Of a DNA stretch of 4,265 nt, positions 633 through 4,265 are shown piece by piece (the stretch's first letter is position 1; the number at the start of each line of letters is the position of its first letter). The notes below the pieces were generated by a model, which was given only the letters and a program-made list of their open reading frames with translations, was not told where the DNA came from and made no database searches. Position numbers and translations under genes: made by a program. The DNA is taken from the IMG/VR virus record IMGVR_UViG_2534681999_000005, one strand, 5' to 3'. This DNA is from a virus (lineage: Duplodnaviria > Heunggongvirae > Uroviricota > Caudoviricetes).

Positions 633-1349
633 ATGGAAACCGTATCTGACGCACTGAAAGCACTGAAAAGAGCCTCTTCACATGTGGTGGCAGCTCGCCT
701 TGGAATTAGTCGTGAAGAGGCTGTCAACGAACTGTGGAAACTGAAACGCCGTGGAGAAGCGGATAACAAGGGGGCGATATGGTGGCTGACTCAGGCTGGT
801 GAAAGTGAACCGGTGTCACCGGTACCGAAAGTGACGGCGCAAATGCTGACAGAGGCGATTGAACAACATGGCCCACAAACGGCGGATGAACTGGCATTGA
901 TGTTCGGAATTACCTCCCGCCGGGCGAATTCATCGCTGGCAATGGCAATCAGCAAAGGGTGTCTGATTCGCGTGAATCAGGATGGTAAATTTCGTTACTG
1001 CATACCGGGCGTTGATTTACCGGCAGAGCCGAAAGCAGCATCCGTAGCTGAAACGGAGGGTAAAGCCCTTCCTCAGCCAGCTGGTGTTGCGTTACCAGTC
1101 CAGGAAACGGCTGCACAGGAAGAAATTAAAACAGAAGCGGTGGAGGACATTGTGAAGTTGCAGCAATCGTTCACTGAAGCGAAAGCAGATGACCTGATTC
1201 TACCATCGCTGCATGTGGCTAACCGCGAGCTGCGCCGGGCGAAAAGTAATGTTCAGAAGTGGGAGCGAGTCTGTGCTGCGCTACGGGAACTGAACAAACA
1301 CAGGGATATTCTCCGGGATATTACCGCCACCAGAGAGCAGCAGCGGTGA
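633..1349 (+). CDS. Hypothetical prophage protein (238 aa) with two winged-helix-like segments and an acidic coiled-coil-like C-terminal half
   Basis: Seen: ATG at 633 preceded by GGAGG (620-624) at 8-nt spacing; the TTG at 615 from the ORF track has no SD. TGA stop at 1347-1349. HTH-like segments: [24 protein letters not shown] and [32 protein letters not shown]. Family not recognised with certainty. Confidence 0.6.
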
Positions 1350-1663
1350 GTGGCTGGAAGAAGTGGCGCTGGGCTGAAATCCTGATACTCCGGCAGTGTG
1401 CGGGAACGATGAGAGTCGAAAGCATCGGTTATCTGATTGGCCGTAGTGAGTCAGCCGTCAGGACGAAAGCGCGGGAACTGGGTATCAGCATGATGTTACG
1501 GGGTGATTATCACCAGTCAGCCAAATGTTCACAGCGTGATATTGAGCTGGCGTGGCAACTGCATCAGCGTGGTGTACCCCGACGGGAAATTGCCGAAAAG
1601 TTTGGGATGAAGTTGGGCGCAGTGAATAACTACGTTTATTTCGACAGGAGGGTTCAGGAGTGA
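1346..1663 (+). CDS. Small DNA-binding protein (105 aa) with two tandem GcrA-like HTH repeats
   Basis: Seen: GTG start at 1346 overlaps the upstream TGA stop (GTGA), suggesting translational coupling. The ORF-track ATG at 1259 would overlap the upstream gene by 91 nt and has no SD; the ATG at 1409 would cut off the first repeat. Repeats: W-x2-W-x2-E...[17 protein letters not shown] and [27 protein letters not shown], resembling the GcrA N-terminal HTH pattern (from memory). Start is uncertain between 1346 and 1409. Confidence 0.5.
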
Positions 1664-1962
1664 GGGTGAGGGTTTATATCGCCGGTCCGATGACGGGATA
1701 TGAAAATTTTAACCGCGAGGCATTTCACAAAACGGAAGAGGTGCTGAAACGGGAAGGGCATACCGTTTTAAACCCGGCAGTACTTCCGGACGGGCTGACT
1801 CAGCCACACTACATGGATATTTGCATGGCAATGCTCCGTTGCGTGGATGCGGTTTACATGCTGAAAGGCTGGCAGCAGTCGGCAGGTGCAGGGGCTGAGC
1901 TGGCACTGGAGGAGAAACCGGGCCATGCGGTGATTTTTCAGGAGGTGGGCAGTGAATATTGA
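1660..1962 (+). CDS. DUF4406-like protein (nucleoside 2-deoxyribosyltransferase-like fold), 100 aa
   Basis: Seen: GTG at 1660 overlaps the upstream TGA (GTGA), with AGGAGG-like sequence 8-14 nt upstream. The N-terminal motif VYIAGPMTGY, followed by NPA...and GW.QS.GA..E, matches what I recall of the DUF4406 / N-deoxyribosyltransferase-like family common in enterobacterial prophages. Not search-verified. Confidence 0.65.
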   Translation: MRVRVYIAGPMTGYENFNREAFHKTEEVLKREGHTVLNPAVLPDGLTQPHYMDICMAMLRCVDAVYMLKGWQQSAGAGAELALEEKPGHAVIFQEVGSEY

Positions 1963-2269
1963 CCCGGCGATAACGATTGATATGGCCCTGAACGCCGGCC
2001 TGGCACTTCTTGGTTATTTCTACATTATGTTCTGCAGCGGACGATGGCTGTCACTGTTGTTCATGAAAAAATGGAATAAACGCCGTAAGCAGGAGCAACG
2101 CCAGAAGGCAATGGATGCATTTTTCGAAGCCTTCGGAATTGACGGCATGGAACCAGGGGATCCAGCTCGCGCAATCAGCAGAGGGGGTGTAGTAATCCTT
2201 GTATATCGGAGTGAAGAGAAAAATGACGATCACAAAACAACGTGTAGAAGAAATCATATCCCGCATTGA
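1952..2269 (+). CDS. Small membrane-anchored protein (105 aa): one hydrophobic helix followed by a basic/charged region
   Basis: Seen: GTG at 1952 with GGAGG (1941-1945) 6 nt upstream; it overlaps the preceding gene's end by 11 nt. Hydrophobic segment ALNAGLALLGYFYIMFCSGRWLSLLF, then KKWNKRRKQEQRQK. The 3' end overlaps the next gene by about 47 nt and that tail looks low-quality, so the gene's reality and extent are uncertain. An alternative start is the ATG at 1982. Confidence 0.4.
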   Translation: MNIDPAITIDMALNAGLALLGYFYIMFCSGRWLSLLFMKKWNKRRKQEQRQKAMDAFFEAFGIDGMEPGDPARAISRGGVVILVYRSEEKNDDHKTTCRRNHIPH

Positions 2270-2540
2270 AATGTATGGACATGGTGCAGGGTATATCGCA
2301 GACGAGGTTAATGATCTGGCTATACTGGCGCTGAATTTATCAAATATCGCGAACCTGAAGCGATACGAGCTTGATATGGGAGGTTGCGACTCGTGCGGTC
2401 AGGATTGTGGCGCTGATATGACTGAAGATCCTGATGGTGATTATGTCCTGTTTGATGACGTGGTTAAGTTGTTTGAATTTGATACAACCACTCAAAAGTT
2501 AGAAATCCCGGCAAAGGAGGCAGCCAGTGGGCAAGATTGA
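2223..2540 (+). CDS. Hypothetical acidic protein (105 aa) with a Cys cluster (CDSCGQDCG)
   Basis: Seen: ATG at 2223 with GGAG/GAAGAG purine-rich sequence upstream; TGA stop at 2538-2540. In-frame alternatives are TTG 2199, GTG 2211 and ATG 2271. 2223 is preferred because the resulting N-terminus (MTITKQR...YGHG) parallels the N-terminus of the 185-aa protein at 3160. Confidence 0.5.
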   Translation: MTITKQRVEEIISRIEMYGHGAGYIADEVNDLAILALNLSNIANLKRYELDMGGCDSCGQDCGADMTEDPDGDYVLFDDVVKLFEFDTTTQKLEIPAKEAASGQD

Positions 2541-2964
2541 CTATCAGGCACTGCGTGAGGCAGCACAAAACTATCAATCGACGCTGGCGTGGTATCAGGC
2601 TACCCCGGACAGCCCAAATGCTGAACGGGATTGTGATGCGGCTCTTGCTGCGTTTAAGCGTCACATCCGTCATCGGGAAGCGGATATTATCGCTGATTTG
2701 CTGGATGGACTGGAAGAAGCAAAATCACAACTCAACGAGCAGCGTGAGTATTACGAAGGCGTTATCTCTGATGGGAGCAAGCGTATTGCTGAACTGGAAG
2801 CGCGGGAAGTTCAATTACCGACTCGCTACGACCTTCGATATGGACACCCGATAAATGCAGATGAGCGACATGTCATGATACCTAAAGAAAATGGCAGTTG
2901 GCTTTACCTGATTGACCTAGAACACGCATTACGCGTCGCTGGCATTCGCATCAAAGGAGAGTGA
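2527..2964 (+). CDS. Ead/Ea22-like prophage protein (145 aa)
   Basis: Seen: GTG at 2527 preceded by AAGGAGG (2514-2520) at 6-nt spacing; it overlaps the upstream gene by 14 nt. From memory: N-terminal IDYQALREAA and the C-terminal block SQLNEQREYYEGVISDGSKRIAELE...AGIRIKGE closely match phage lambda Ea22 (KSKLNEQREYYEGVISDGSKRIAKLE...AGIRIKGE). Confidence 0.75.
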   Translation: MGKIDYQALREAAQNYQSTLAWYQATPDSPNAERDCDAALAAFKRHIRHREADIIADLLDGLEEAKSQLNEQREYYEGVISDGSKRIAELEAREVQLPTRYDLRYGHPINADERHVMIPKENGSWLYLIDLEHALRVAGIRIKGE

Positions 2965-2965
2965 G

Positions 2966-3157
2966 ATGAACGGACAAATATCAATTGTTCGACCAGGAGC
3001 ATGTGACGATCGCGAAATACGAATGATTATTCGTCTGGCGATGGGGAAAACAATAACTGCTCTCATTACTCCAGAAAATCTCGCATTAGCATTAACAGGA
3101 AAGTCAGACATGCCAGTAGAGCTAAAGCTGCGAAATGTTGAGATTAAGGTGAAATAG
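2966..3157 (+). CDS. Hypothetical small protein (63 aa)
   Basis: Seen: ATG at 2966, one nt after the upstream TGA, with GGAGAG 6 nt upstream; TAG stop at 3155-3157. No recognisable family. Confidence 0.5.
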   Translation: MNGQISIVRPGACDDREIRMIIRLAMGKTITALITPENLALALTGKSDMPVELKLRNVEIKVK

Positions 3158-3159
3158 CT

Positions 3160-3717
3160 ATGACCACTATTACCAAAGATCGACTGCTGACAATCCAGCA
3201 TTGGCGCGAAACATACGGACCGGGTAGCAACGTTGTGCTTCCAGCAGAAGAAGCGGAAGAGCTGGCACGGATTGCGCTGGCATCACTGGCAGCAGTATCG
3301 GATGAACGAGCAGCCTATGAATTATTTATGGAGAAGCGTTTCGGAGAATCTGTAGATCGCCGCAGAGCAAAAAATGGCGATAGAGATTACATGGTATGGG
3401 ATATGGCGCTTGGCTGGATTATCTGGTGTCACCGCGCCGCCATGCTTCAGGCTGGAAACTTTCGGGAAAATAAGGGTTCGTCAACCAATAATTTTCGGAT
3501 AATCTCGGAAACGTCAACCAACTCTCCGGCAATCCCTGATGAGGTGTTGTCCGCAATCCTGAAGGTCGCCAGGCTTCGTGCAGATTTCGATGCTTCTGAA
3601 GTGGACAGGCGAGGTATCGGTAGTTGTCTGGATGAGGCCGAGCAAGAACTTATCGTTACCATTAACGAATACGCCAGTCAGATCGCAGTAGAAGCGACAC
3701 AGGGGGAGAACCAATGA
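3160..3717 (+). CDS. Hypothetical prophage protein (185 aa)
   Basis: Seen: ATG at 3160 with AGGTG (3147-3151) 8 nt upstream; TGA stop at 3715-3717. The N-terminus MTTITKDRLLTIQHWRETYGPG resembles that of the 2223 gene. No family recognised. Confidence 0.6.
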   Translation: MTTITKDRLLTIQHWRETYGPGSNVVLPAEEAEELARIALASLAAVSDERAAYELFMEKRFGESVDRRRAKNGDRDYMVWDMALGWIIWCHRAAMLQAGNFRENKGSSTNNFRIISETSTNSPAIPDEVLSAILKVARLRADFDASEVDRRGIGSCLDEAEQELIVTINEYASQIAVEATQGENQ

Positions 3718-3791
3718 GCCGGCCAGATGCATTTGCAGGCGTTGCTATAGCTATTGCTTTTCTAGTATATGTTATTTGTCGGTGGGGGTAA
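3714..3791 (+). CDS. Tiny hydrophobic peptide ORF (25 aa: MSRPDAFAGVAIAIAFLVYVICRWG), putative small membrane protein
   Basis: Seen: ATG at 3714 overlaps the upstream TGA (ATGA); strong SD AGGGGGAG (3701-3708) about 5 nt upstream; TAA stop at 3789-3791. The peptide is almost entirely hydrophobic. Translated by hand; below the ORF-track length cutoff. Confidence 0.35.
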   Translation: MSRPDAFAGVAIAIAFLVYVICRWG

Positions 3792-3826
3792 AAACGTTCG
3801 CCGGGATTCACACCAAGGGAGGGAAT

Positions 3827-3931
3827 ATGTCGGATGATATTTCACTGGTAATGGAAGGCGCTCTGGCTGTTATTGCTGTTGTGGGTGTTTACTGCCTGGT
3901 TGTGTTTTTGATGGAGCGCCTGGGGAACTGA
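3827..3931 (+). CDS. Tiny single-TM peptide ORF (34 aa: MSDDISLVMEGALAVIAVVGVYCLVVFLMERLGN)
   Basis: Seen: ATG at 3827 preceded by AAGGGAGGG (3816-3824) with about 2-5 nt spacing depending on where the SD core is placed; TGA stop at 3929-3931. Acidic N-terminus, about 20-residue hydrophobic core, charged C-terminus. Translated by hand. Confidence 0.4.
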   Translation: MSDDISLVMEGALAVIAVVGVYCLVVFLMERLGN

Positions 3932-3938
3932 ATTCATT

Positions 3939-3961
3939 CCGTATGGGAATTCCCATATCGG
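3939..3961. repeat. Imperfect 23-bp palindrome centred on the perfect 10-bp palindrome GGGAATTCCC (3945-3954); candidate hairpin or protein-binding site
   Basis: Seen: CCGTATGGGAATTCCCATATCGG is the reverse complement of itself apart from one indel. It lies 8 nt after the stop of the 34-aa ORF. No downstream U-tract, so it is not a canonical intrinsic terminator. Confidence 0.4.
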
Positions 3962-3970
3962 GCAAAACGG

Positions 3971-3999
3971 TTTGCTGTAAAGCGAGAGTTAAGTAGAAT
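3971..3999 (+). promoter_or_regulatory. Candidate sigma70 promoter for the hok/mok transcript
   Basis: Seen: -35-like TTTGCT (3971-3976), 17-bp spacer, -10-like TAGAAT (3994-3999). Predicted transcript start near 4006, about 110 nt upstream of the mok-like ATG. Match by eye only. Confidence 0.3.
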
Positions 4000-4017
4000 T
4001 GCTGCGGGTGCTTGAGG

Positions 4018-4053
4018 CTGTCTGCCTCGGGCATGCCACCGTAAGGCAGACAG
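4018..4053 (+). other. Stem-loop in the hok leader: perfect 10-bp stem with a 16-nt loop
   Basis: Seen: CTGTCTGCCT (4018-4027) is the exact reverse complement of AGGCAGACAG (4044-4053). No U-tract follows on either strand, so this is a structural RNA element rather than a terminator. Confidence 0.45.
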
Positions 4054-4059
4054 AGAAAA

Positions 4060-4126
4060 GCCCCAGTTAACATTACGCGTCCTGCAAGACGCTTAACATT
4101 AATCTGAGGCCCAATCTATGCTTCAC
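4060..4126 (-). ncRNA. sok: Candidate Sok-like antisense RNA, antitoxin of the type I hok system (boundaries approximate)
   Basis: Inference from established hok/sok organisation: Sok is a roughly 60-70 nt antisense RNA covering the mok translation-initiation region. A promoter-like element on the minus strand would start transcription near 4125, opposite the mok-like ATG at 4118. No canonical terminator was identified, so the 3' end is a guess. Confidence 0.3.
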
Positions 4127-4265
4127 AAACGTAGGTTAGCCTCTTACGCGCCGAAAGGCAAGGAGAAGCAGGCTATGAAGCAGCAAAAGGCGATGTTAAT
4201 CGCCCTGATCGTCATCTGTTTAACCGTCATAGTGACGGCACTGGTAACGAGGAAAGACCTCTGCG
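4118..4265 (+). CDS. mok: mok-like in-frame upstream start giving a 19-codon N-terminal extension of hok (MLHKRRLASYAPKGKEKQA-MKQQK...); partial
   Basis: Seen: ATG at 4118 is in frame with the hok ATG at 4175, with no intervening stop, and GAGG lies 8 nt upstream. From memory: this resembles the in-frame MokC extension of chromosomal hokC (ML...KVKEKRAMKQHK). Confidence 0.4.
   Translation, partial: MLHKRRLASYAPKGKEKQAMKQQKAMLIALIVICLTVIVTALVTRKDLC
4133..4161 (-). promoter_or_regulatory. Candidate sigma70 promoter for the Sok-like antisense RNA
   Basis: Seen on the minus strand: -35-like TTGCCT (complement of 4156-4161), 17-bp spacer, -10-like TAACCT (complement of 4133-4138). The most conserved -10 positions (TA...T) are present. 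Confidence 0.3.
4175..4265 (+). CDS. hok: Hok/Gef-family type I toxin (HokD/RelF- or HokC-like), first 30 codons; 3'-truncated by the window edge
   Basis: Seen: ATG at 4175 with AAGGAG (4160-4165) 9 nt upstream. Translation MKQQKAMLIALIVICLTVIVTALVTRKDLC matches, from memory, the N-terminus of E. coli HokD/RelF and is very close to HokC/Gef (MKQHKAMIVALIVICITAVVAALVTRKDLC). The ORF runs off the window. Confidence 0.85.
   Translation, partial: MKQQKAMLIALIVICLTVIVTALVTRKDLC

What the first reader, a model, noticed from the sequence alone, without database searches (positions are those of the whole stretch)
1952..2271. Membrane-anchored small protein whose 3' end overlaps the next gene; ambiguous gene boundaries
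The 1952-2269 ORF has a strong SD and a plausible TM helix plus basic region, but its last 15-25 codons overlap the next gene and look like poor-quality sequence. The next gene has four possible in-frame starts (TTG 2199, GTG 2211, ATG 2223, ATG 2271). The ATG at 2271 lies one nt after the 1952-ORF stop. A +1 frame relation would also permit a fusion product. The true arrangement (overlap, tight coupling or frameshift) cannot be settled by eye.
Basis: seen in the sequence. Interest (0 to 1): 0.4.

Follow-up and report, generated by a model that had tools for sequence, protein, structure and literature searches.

The report
Two overlapping prophage genes, boundaries resolved
This is an ordinary, already-annotated small membrane-protein gene (family DUF4752) in an E. 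coli O157-type prophage; its last 14 codons are an unconserved read-through into the next gene, which starts at ATG 2223, with no sign of a frameshift fusion.

Summary
ORF 1952-2269 is real: it is a full-length member of Pfam DUF4752 (E 7.5e-39) and phrog_667, it is under purifying selection (dN/dS 0.04-0.40), and PGAP annotates it with these coordinates in near-identical E. coli O157:H7 prophages. A hydrophobic N-terminal segment followed by a basic cluster is found across the family, which suggests a single-pass N-out/C-in membrane protein.

The gene-boundary ambiguity is resolved by comparison. The next gene (phrog_3126) starts at ATG 2223. Its N-terminus MTITKQRVEEIISRIEMY is conserved behind at least five unrelated upstream genes. 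Homology to those phages begins at 2216-2223. Substitutions in the overlap are mostly synonymous in the 2223 frame (9 of 19) and rarely in the 1952 frame (3 of 20).

The conserved DUF4752 protein ends at ...VYRSEEKN (residue 92). The remaining 14 residues are the out-of-frame reading of whichever gene module follows: the tails are EQD, ERD, ERDQLSGTA, the window's 14-residue tail, or a 119-aa read-through. The tail has low model confidence and no predicted structure.

I found no slippery site, no conserved fusion and no notable RNA structure. This is a 47-nt gene overlap created at a mosaic module junction, which is ordinary for lambdoid phages. The biochemical function of DUF4752 remains unknown.

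The parts
1940..1947 (+). Shine-Dalgarno sequence (AGGAGGTG) for the DUF4752 gene. It lies inside the 3' end of the upstream DUF4406 gene.
   Evidence: Anti-SD duplex energy -11.6 kcal/mol with 4-nt spacing. Homology to the Stx-phage DUF4752 module begins at window 1939.
1952..2269 (+). DUF4752 family gene (GTG start, 105 aa, TGA stop). It overlaps the upstream DUF4406 gene by 11 nt (1952-1962).
   Evidence: PF15944 E 7.5e-39 with model coverage 1-84/84; phrog_667 1-93/94. PGAP annotates a CDS (WP_001017965) at these coordinates. dN/dS 0.04-0.40.
1976..2038 (+). Hydrophobic segment (about residues 9-29), the putative transmembrane anchor.
   Evidence: Kyte-Doolittle 19-residue maximum 1.54 at residues 11-29. 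The feature is family-wide. The AF2 model has a helix with pLDDT about 92 here.
2063..2110 (+). Basic juxtamembrane cluster MKKWNKRRKQEQRQKA (8 K/R). By the positive-inside rule this places the C-terminus in the cytoplasm.
   Evidence: Across the family there are 5-9 K/R in the 22 residues after the hydrophobic segment and 0-1 before it in most members. The motif xWxKRRK is conserved in alignment A2.
2111..2224 (+). Conserved C-terminal mini-domain (residues 54-91): the end of the long helix plus a beta-hairpin, ending in ...VVILVYRSEEK.
   Evidence: Alignment A2. The AF2 model has strands at 72-75 and 81-84.
2198..2226 (+). Conserved junction CTTGTATATCGGAGTGAAGAGAAAAATGA. It encodes the last conserved DUF4752 codons and also carries the ribosome-binding region and ATG of whichever gene follows.
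   Evidence: It is almost invariant across 17 distinct junction sequences that have three kinds of downstream gene. Megablast module breakpoints fall at window 2216-2229.
2223..2269 (+). The 47-nt overlap between the two genes. The downstream gene is in the +1 frame.
2225..2266 (+). Unconserved 14-residue tail of the DUF4752 ORF (DDHKTTCRRNHIPH). It is the out-of-frame reading of the downstream gene's first codons.
   Evidence: The tail changes with the downstream module. HMMER matches to distant family members end at query residue 84-95. pLDDT is 52-57 with no secondary structure. 17 of 20 substitution events are non-synonymous in this frame.
2223..2540 (+). Downstream gene (105 aa, phrog_3126, function unknown), starting at ATG 2223.
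   Evidence: The phrog_3126 model aligns 1-105/105 from this Met at 221 bits. The N-terminus is conserved behind unrelated upstream genes. PGAP annotates a CDS (WP_000156547) here.
1660..1962 (+). Upstream DUF4406 gene (context).
   Evidence: PF14359 E 2e-33; PGAP annotation.
2527..2964 (+). Ead/Ea22-like gene (context). Its N-terminus MGKIDYQALRE matches the genes that directly follow DUF4752 in Stx phages.
   Evidence: PF13935 at 51 bits. Compare the window sequence with the L068 and L076 junctions.

Best explanation
Two real, separately translated genes of a polycistronic early operon in a lambdoid prophage overlap by 47 nt.

Gene 1 (GTG 1952 to TGA 2269) encodes a DUF4752 protein. It has a short N-terminal segment outside the membrane, one transmembrane helix, a conserved basic juxtamembrane cluster, and a cytoplasmic domain of about 40 residues (helix plus beta-hairpin). 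The conserved protein ends at ...VYRSEEKN, near residue 92.

Gene 2 (phrog_3126) initiates at ATG 2223. That ATG sits inside the last conserved codons of gene 1 (AAA AAT GAC).

The DUF4752 module, as it moves between phages, runs from its SD (about 1939) to this ATG(A) (about 2226). In this subfamily it carries no stop codon of its own. The stop comes from the first out-of-frame stop in whichever module lies downstream. Behind Ea22-type genes this gives a 94- or 100-aa protein. Behind the phrog_3126 gene it gives the 105-aa form seen here, with 14 extra residues that are not under selection.

Shown here: family membership, purifying selection, the start of gene 2, and the variability of the tail. 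Inferred: membrane topology; that gene 2 is initiated from its own weak GGAG/A-rich site, helped by ribosomes translating gene 1; and that the protein acts as a dispensable early host- or phage-modulating accessory factor.
For: - Membership: DUF4752 and phrog_667 match over their full length.
- Annotation: PGAP gives the same two CDSs, 1952-2269 and 2223-2540. 293 complete E. coli genomes hold at least 80% of window 1600-2600.
- Selection: core dN/dS is 0.04-0.40, and variable columns by codon position are 37/20/57.
- Tails: 13 distinct DUF4752 proteins from 84 sequences share the core up to RSEEKN. Their tails then follow the downstream module, including a TGA>TGG read-through to 119 aa and an early stop giving 88 aa.
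- Start of gene 2: in IME10, Sf101, Akira, ST540 and other loci the phrog_3126 gene has the same ATG and N-terminus behind unrelated genes.
- Frame of constraint: in the overlap, 9 of 19 variant events are synonymous in the 2223 frame against 3 of 20 in the 1952 frame, Fisher p = 0.04. Just upstream of the ATG the pattern reverses: TAT>TAC and AGT>AGC are silent in the DUF4752 frame but give I>T and V>A in the +1 frame.
- Family extent: an exhaustive HMMER search finds 40 representatives, nearly all 82-111 aa, and matches to distant members end at query residue 84-95.
- Structure: the AF2 model gives the tail low confidence and no secondary structure.
- Relatives: distant members use a 4-nt ATGA overlap or a short gap.
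- Operon: no promoter or terminator signal above chance in 1600-2700.
- Topology: the TM-plus-basic pattern is family-wide.
Against: - By SD strength alone, TTG 2199 (-12.1 kcal/mol) beats ATG 2223 (-6.1). A minor N-terminally extended isoform of gene 2 in this particular context therefore cannot be excluded from sequence.
- The per-frame substitution count is small (p = 0.04).
- The hydrophobic segment is borderline on the Kyte-Doolittle scale (1.54), and no dedicated TM predictor was available.
- There are no expression or proteomic data.
- Some database copies are truncated or frameshifted (79-aa forms P0043, P0048, P0054; L078), so the gene is dispensable and decays in some prophages.
- The function of DUF4752 is unknown: no literature hit and no fold match.
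Confidence: 0.88

Rival explanations
1. The downstream gene starts further upstream, at TTG 2199 or GTG 2211. This would add 4-8 residues (MYIGVKRK-) and lengthen the overlap to 59-71 nt.
For: TTG 2199 opens the maximal ORF. It is preceded by a strong SD-like GAGGGGGUG at 9-nt spacing, -12.1 kcal/mol. The 1999 VT2-Sakai record annotates the GTG equivalent as the start of orf77.
Against: The phrog_3126 and Pfam Ead_Ea22 profiles both begin at or right after the ATG Met. The extension is absent wherever the gene sits behind other genes. GTG 2211 is GCG in the L083 group, and its SD energy is -2.6 kcal/mol. Substitutions upstream of the ATG are silent in the DUF4752 frame and replacement in this frame. 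The SD-like motif is simply the conserved Arg-Gly-Gly-Val coding of DUF4752.
Confidence: 0.06
2. The downstream gene starts at ATG 2271, one base after the DUF4752 stop, by termination-reinitiation coupling without any overlap.
For: The stop (2267-2269) and ATG 2271 are almost adjacent.
Against: There is no SD before 2271. The 16 codons upstream of it are conserved as protein, with synonymous variation, in many phages. The ATG is GTG in Akira. The phrog_3126 profile covers those residues.
Confidence: 0.03
3. A programmed +1 ribosomal frameshift within 2196-2269 fuses DUF4752 to the phrog_3126 protein. This would tether the second protein to the membrane.
For: The second gene is in the +1 frame. 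Tandem rare AGA AGA codons lie at 2246-2251 in the DUF4752 frame.
Against: No known +1 shift site (prfB-type CUU UGA or similar) and no -1 heptamer is present. AGA AGA is a by-product of conserved Val-Glu-Glu-Ile coding in the other frame, and it is AGA AAA in the commonest variant. The downstream partner is interchangeable between phages, so no fusion is conserved. No fused protein of about 190 aa exists among 5.8 billion database proteins. The only apparent fusions (P0017, P0051) carry several homopolymer indels typical of assembly errors. RNA folding of the junction is unremarkable, z = +0.58.
Confidence: 0.02
4. The 1952 ORF is a non-coding artefact.
For: A few homologous copies are truncated or frameshifted.
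Against: The Pfam and PHROG matches are strong, the ORF is under purifying selection, and it is conserved down to 27% identity across Escherichia, Salmonella, Klebsiella, Erwinia and Hafnia phages.
Confidence: 0.01

Closest known systems
Pfam PF15944 (DUF4752) / PHROG 667, e.g. VT2-Sakai orf78 (BAA84361) and ST64T gp30
   Same: The match covers the full profile. Size (82-111 aa), N-terminal hydrophobic segment, WxKRRK basic cluster and C-terminal hairpin are all shared. The genes lie in early accessory regions of temperate enterobacterial phages, either after the replication genes or between orf73 and ea22 in the exo-xis region.
   Different: The window copy carries an 11-14-residue unconserved C-terminal extension, because its stop comes from a different downstream module (phrog_3126 instead of Ea22-like).
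Mosaic module junctions at gene boundaries in lambdoid phages (established knowledge, e.g. comparative work on HK97/HK022/HK620 and the nin regions)
   Same: Homology breakpoints fall at the gene start signals (about 1939 and about 2223). The same cassette is found next to different neighbours.
   Different: Here the junction lies a few codons inside the upstream ORF, so in this subfamily the upstream protein's C-terminus and stop are set by its neighbour. Synonymous-site conservation at the junction is no higher than in the middle of the gene, so I make no claim for a special recombination linker.
Short overlapping start/stop arrangements (ATGA-type translational coupling) in phage and bacterial operons
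   Same: The genes are co-directional in one operon, and ribosomes on gene 1 pass over the start of gene 2. Distant DUF4752 genes use the classic 4-nt ATGA overlap.
   Different: The overlap in the window is 47 nt, so the stop lies about 45 nt downstream of the next start. Termination-reinitiation coupling is therefore less obvious here and was not tested.
Programmed +1 frameshifting (prfB / RF2 type)
   Same: Only the +1 frame relation between the two ORFs.
   Different: There is no shift site, no correctly placed stimulatory element, and no conservation of the fused product.

Membership tests
Pfam PF15944 DUF4752 | Score above the curated gathering threshold with full model coverage | tested here: met
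   132.1 bits against a cut-off of 27, E 7.5e-39; residues 7-90 align to model positions 1-84 of 84.
Pfam PF15944 DUF4752 | Family architecture: 80-110 aa, an N-terminal hydrophobic segment followed by a basic cluster, and a C-terminal (I/V)xx(Y/F)R strand | tested here: met
   Alignment A2 of 30 members; hydrophobicity and charge table; AF2 model.
PHROG 667 (unknown function) | Full-length profile match | tested here: met
   139.8 bits, residues 1-93 on profile positions 1-93 of 94.
PHROG 3126 (downstream gene, 2223-2540) | Full-length profile match beginning at the proposed start codon | tested here: met
   221 bits; profile 1-105/105 aligns from residue 9 of the TTG-2199 translation, which is the ATG 2223 Met.
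Single-pass inner-membrane protein (N-out/C-in) | Membrane insertion and topology | not testable with these tools
   Only hydrophobicity (KD 1.54, borderline) and the positive-inside charge pattern support this. It needs fractionation or PhoA/GFP fusions.
Programmed +1 ribosomal frameshift (prfB-like) | A shift-prone P-site codon followed by a stop or hungry codon, plus an SD-like stimulator about 3 nt upstream | tested here: not met
   The codon list for 2195-2269 contains no such motif. The stop context is CAT TGA A.
Programmed +1 ribosomal frameshift (prfB-like) | The two-ORF fusion architecture is conserved among homologues | tested here: not met
   The downstream partner varies (phrog_3126, several Ea22-like genes, others). 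No fused protein appears in the database hits.
Programmed -1 ribosomal frameshift | An X XXY YYZ heptamer and a -1 frame relation | tested here: not met
   No heptamer is present in the ORF, and the downstream gene is in the +1 frame, not -1.
ATGA-type translational coupling | Stop of gene 1 within a few nt of the start of gene 2 | tested here: not met
   The stop at 2267-2269 lies 45 nt downstream of ATG 2223. The feature is met in relatives D6, SPN1S, PhiR46_1 and L084.

The most novel reading that the evidence does not exclude
In this subfamily the DUF4752 cassette has no stop codon of its own, so each module swap gives the membrane protein a new C-terminal tail of 3 to 29 residues. It also forces ribosomes to read through the neighbour's initiation site. 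This could be a functional device. It might set the expression of the downstream early gene by occlusion or coupling. Alternatively, rare +1 slippage at the hungry AGA AGA codons could produce a small amount of membrane-tethered fusion protein. Under this reading the arrangement would be more than a neutral by-product.
Probability: 0.04. Interest if true: 0.35.

Novelty: already known. Interest (0 to 1): 0.1.

Why it matters
It matters little beyond annotation hygiene. The analysis confirms the PGAP gene calls (1952-2269 and 2223-2540). It also shows that older records such as VT2-Sakai orf77, which start at the GTG, probably begin 12 nt too early. It explains why DUF4752 proteins are deposited with lengths of 88, 94, 100, 105 and 119 aa: the C-terminus depends on the neighbouring module. 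One point is mildly useful. In Stx phages this uncharacterised membrane-protein gene sits between orf73 and ea22, inside the experimentally studied exo-xis region. The exo-xis review I read does not list it among the conserved genes.

Tried and rejected
- Fold searches of the AF2 model against PDB and BFVD gave no significant match; the best E-values were 1.2 and 0.05.
- NCBIfam and PADLOC gave no hits for either protein.
- A full-text literature search for 'DUF4752' returned zero papers.
- A text search of the exo-xis review PMC8614690 found 'transmembrane' not at all and 'membrane' only in an unrelated passage, and this gene is not among the five conserved genes it names.
- RNA folding of 2170-2290 showed no unusual structure, z = +0.58.
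- The promoter and terminator scan of 1600-2700 was at chance level.
- I tested whether the 3' junction is unusually conserved at synonymous sites, as a candidate recombination linker. It is no more conserved than the middle of the gene, so I dropped that idea.
- I looked for natural DUF4752-phrog_3126 fusions. Only error-ridden short forms (P0017, P0051) and one DUF4406-DUF4752 run-on with frameshifts (P0056) were found.

Full report
**Where the window comes from.** The window is an early region of a lambdoid prophage of the E. coli O157:H7 type. Bases 1600-2600 are 100% identical to several O157:H7 chromosomes, and 293 of 5426 complete E. coli genomes hold at least 80% of that stretch. Compared with strain TR01, the window has one mismatch up to about position 3498 and diverges after that. 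PGAP annotates a co-directional gene string there: replication protein P, DUF1627, a hypothetical gene, DUF4406 (1660-1962), DUF4752 (1952-2269), a hypothetical gene (2223-2540), ead/Ea22-like (2527-2964), a hypothetical gene, DUF551, and hokD.

**The observation.**
- GTG 1952 has an AGGAGGTG Shine-Dalgarno sequence (-11.6 kcal/mol, 4-nt spacing).
- The ORF is 105 aa and ends at TGA 2267-2269.
- The next ORF has in-frame TTG 2199, GTG 2211, ATG 2223 and ATG 2271, bounded upstream by TAG TAA at 2190-2195.
- The second ORF is in the +1 frame.
- The hydrophobic stretch scores a KD19 maximum of 1.54 at residues 11-29, and the basic stretch has 8 K/R in residues 38-53.

**Is the 1952 ORF a gene?** Yes.
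- It matches Pfam DUF4752 at 132 bits (cut-off 27), covering the whole 84-position model with residues 7-90. It matches phrog_667 over positions 1-93 of 94.
- Pairwise dN/dS against the window is 0.04-0.40 for the other 14 of 15 distinct nucleotide versions of the 87-codon core (the window is the 15th). Third codon positions vary most, 57 variable columns against 37 and 20.
- An exhaustive HMMER scan of 1.84 billion representatives finds a small family of 40 proteins at E <= 0.001. Nearly all are 82-111 aa, with identity as low as 27%.
- tblastn finds the gene in 126 phage records: Stx phages, P22-like phages ST64T, ST104 and CUS-3, phage D6, and Klebsiella, Erwinia and Hafnia phages.
- The architecture is conserved across the family: a hydrophobic N-terminal segment, then 5-9 K/R within 22 residues and 0-1 before it in most members, then a short C-terminal domain ending in (I/V)xx(Y/F)R.
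- AlphaFold2, run on this 30-sequence alignment, gives a long helix (5-61, pLDDT about 92 over the hydrophobic part) and a beta-hairpin (72-75, 81-84). From residue 90 on there is no secondary structure and pLDDT is 52-57.

**Where does the conserved protein end?** In 83 loci plus the window I found 13 distinct proteins. All share the core up to ...VVILVYRSEEKN and then diverge:
- DDHKTTCRRNHIPH or DDHKTTSRKNHISP (105 aa);
- EQD or ERD (94 aa);
- ERDQLSGTA (100 aa);
- an early stop after RSE (88 aa);
- a 119-aa read-through, where a TGA>TGG change corresponds to Glu>Gly in the other frame.

The tail is fully determined by the downstream gene. Every locus has the junction CTTGTATAYCGGAGYGAAGAGAAAAATGA. 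The ATG inside it opens either MTITKQRVE... (phrog_3126) or MS(K/E)I(D/N)YQALRE... (Ead/Ea22-like) in the +1 frame. More distant family members end 2-15 residues after the conserved Arg. They use a 4-nt ATGA overlap with the next gene (L084, D6, SPN1S, PhiR46_1) or a 9-nt gap (ST64T). Megablast breakpoints agree. Stx phages match window 1939-2226 only. Phages with the phrog_3126 gene but no adjacent DUF4752 gene match from 2216-2223 onward. In this subfamily, then, the transferable DUF4752 module runs from its SD to the neighbour's ATG, and its stop codon is supplied by the neighbour.

**Which start does the next gene use?** ATG 2223.
- The phrog_3126 profile (105 positions) aligns end to end from that Met. 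The Pfam Ead_Ea22 model likewise starts right after the equivalent Met in VT2-Sakai.
- In IME10, Sf101, Akira, ST540 and other IMG/VR loci the same ATG and the N-terminus MTITKQRVEEIISRIEMY follow unrelated upstream sequence. Only about 5-7 nt before the ATG are shared.
- Across 18 distinct versions of nt 2222-2270, 9 of 19 variant events are synonymous in the 2223 frame (ACG/ACA, CGT/CGA/CGG, TCC/TCG, CGC/CGT, ATC/ATA, AAA/AAG). Only 3 of 20 are synonymous in the 1952 frame; Fisher p = 0.04.
- Immediately upstream of the ATG the pattern reverses. TAT>TAC and AGT>AGC are silent in the DUF4752 frame and change Ile>Thr and Val>Ala in the +1 frame. The latter destroys GTG 2211 in five loci.
- ATG 2271 has no SD and is GTG in Akira.
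- The one point in favour of a rival is that TTG 2199 follows a strong SD-like GAGGGGGUG (-12.1 kcal/mol, against -6.1 for ATG 2223). That motif is the conserved Arg-Gly-Gly-Val coding of DUF4752, and it is absent in every other context of the gene. A minor extended isoform in this context cannot be strictly excluded.
- The 1999 VT2-Sakai record starts its orf77 at the GTG equivalent. That is probably 12 nt too early.

**Frameshift fusion?** I found no support for one.
- The DUF4752 ORF has no X XXY YYZ heptamer, and a -1 shift would reach the wrong frame anyway.
- There is no prfB-like +1 site; the stop context is CAT TGA A.
- The tandem rare AGA AGA codons at 2246-2251 are a by-product of conserved Val-Glu-Glu-Ile coding in the other frame, and they are AGA AAA in the commonest variant.
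- The longest homopolymer in the overlap is A5.
- Folding of 2170-2290 is unremarkable, z = +0.58.
- No fusion of about 190 aa appears among the hits from a 5.8-billion-protein database. The apparent short fusions (P0017, P0051) carry several single-base homopolymer indels and internal frameshifted stretches typical of assembly errors.
- Because the downstream partner is interchangeable, no fusion product could be conserved.

**Mechanism, and what is inferred.** Two things are shown: there are two separate genes with a 47-nt overlap, and the last 14 residues of the DUF4752 ORF are an unselected consequence of a mosaic junction. The rest is inferred.
- The protein is probably a single-pass inner-membrane protein with a very short periplasmic N-terminus and a cytoplasmic C-terminal domain (positive-inside rule).
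- Gene 2 is probably initiated at its own modest GGAG/A-rich site, while ribosomes translating gene 1 keep the region unfolded.
- Coupling by termination-reinitiation is less likely here than in the relatives with a 4- or 14-nt overlap.
- Function is unknown. [quoted passage not shown] It decays in some prophages (79-aa frameshifted forms). My best guess is a non-essential early factor that acts at the membrane on a host or phage target. My confidence in that functional guess is low, about 0.25.
- No defence-system, NCBIfam, structural or literature match was found.

**Verdict.** The finding is a correct observation of an ordinary feature. The gene, its family and both CDS boundaries are already in RefSeq annotation. 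The new detail is small: in this subfamily the stop codon and C-terminal tail are supplied by the neighbouring module, which explains the 88, 94, 100, 105 and 119-aa length variants. Interest is low.

Noticed in passing
window 4006-4180 (+) and 4175-4265 (+): There is a complete Rfam 'sok' match (RF01794, 116 bits). It is followed by a Hok-family toxin ORF (MKQQKAMLIALIVICLTVIVTALVTRKDLC...) that runs off the window end. The near-identical TR01 record annotates the equivalent gene as hokD. Together they form a type I toxin-antitoxin locus inside the prophage.
   Followed up: partly
window 2527-2560 versus the junctions of L068/L076: The window's Ea22-like gene starts GTG GGC AAG ATT GAC TAT CAG GCA CTG CGT GAG (MGKIDYQALRE). 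This is nearly the same 5' end as the Ea22-like genes that directly follow DUF4752 in Stx phages. The phrog_3126 gene (2223-2540) therefore looks like a cassette inserted between DUF4752 and an ea22-like gene. It overlaps the Ea22-like start by 14 nt.
   Followed up: partly
L002 (VT2-Sakai) 1214-1921; PMC8614690: In Stx phages the DUF4752 gene lies between the TraR-like zinc-finger gene orf73 and ea22, within the experimentally studied exo-xis region. The exo-xis review lists only orf60a, orf63, orf61, orf73 and ea22 as the conserved block, and a text search of it found no mention of a membrane-protein ORF there.
   Followed up: partly
window 3715-3792 (+) and 3827-3931 (+): Two very small hydrophobic ORFs lie between the DUF551 gene and the hok/sok locus: MSRPDAFAGVAIAIAFLVYVICRWG and MSDDISLVMEGALAVIAVVGVYCLVVFLMERLGN. 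The second is annotated as a 34-aa hypothetical protein in TR01.
   Followed up: no
window 1346-3160: The whole operon is a chain of overlapping or abutting starts and stops: 1346/1349, 1660/1663, 1952/1962, 2223/2269, 2527/2540, 2964/2966 and 3157/3160. No promoter or terminator signal above chance was found in 1600-2700. This is consistent with one tightly packed polycistronic unit.
   Followed up: partly
window 3499-4265 versus L001: The window matches O157:H7 strain TR01 with one mismatch up to about 3498. After that point the ungapped comparison breaks down (545 mismatches): the 3' part of the DUF551 gene differs in length and sequence, and the two sequences are out of register from there on. 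This is another mosaic breakpoint, so the window's exact source is a different prophage or strain.
   Followed up: no
P0056 (169 aa): This database protein joins DUF4406 and DUF4752 in one reading frame and has further frameshifted segments. It is probably an assembly or sequencing artefact at the 11-nt overlap of those two genes, not a real fusion.
   Followed up: no
window 2223-2540: The phrog_3126 protein has a CDSCGQDC motif and an acidic C-terminal half. It has no Pfam, NCBIfam or PADLOC match. It is widespread in P22-like and lambdoid phages, always next to Ea22, DUF551 or DUF2737 modules.
   Followed up: no
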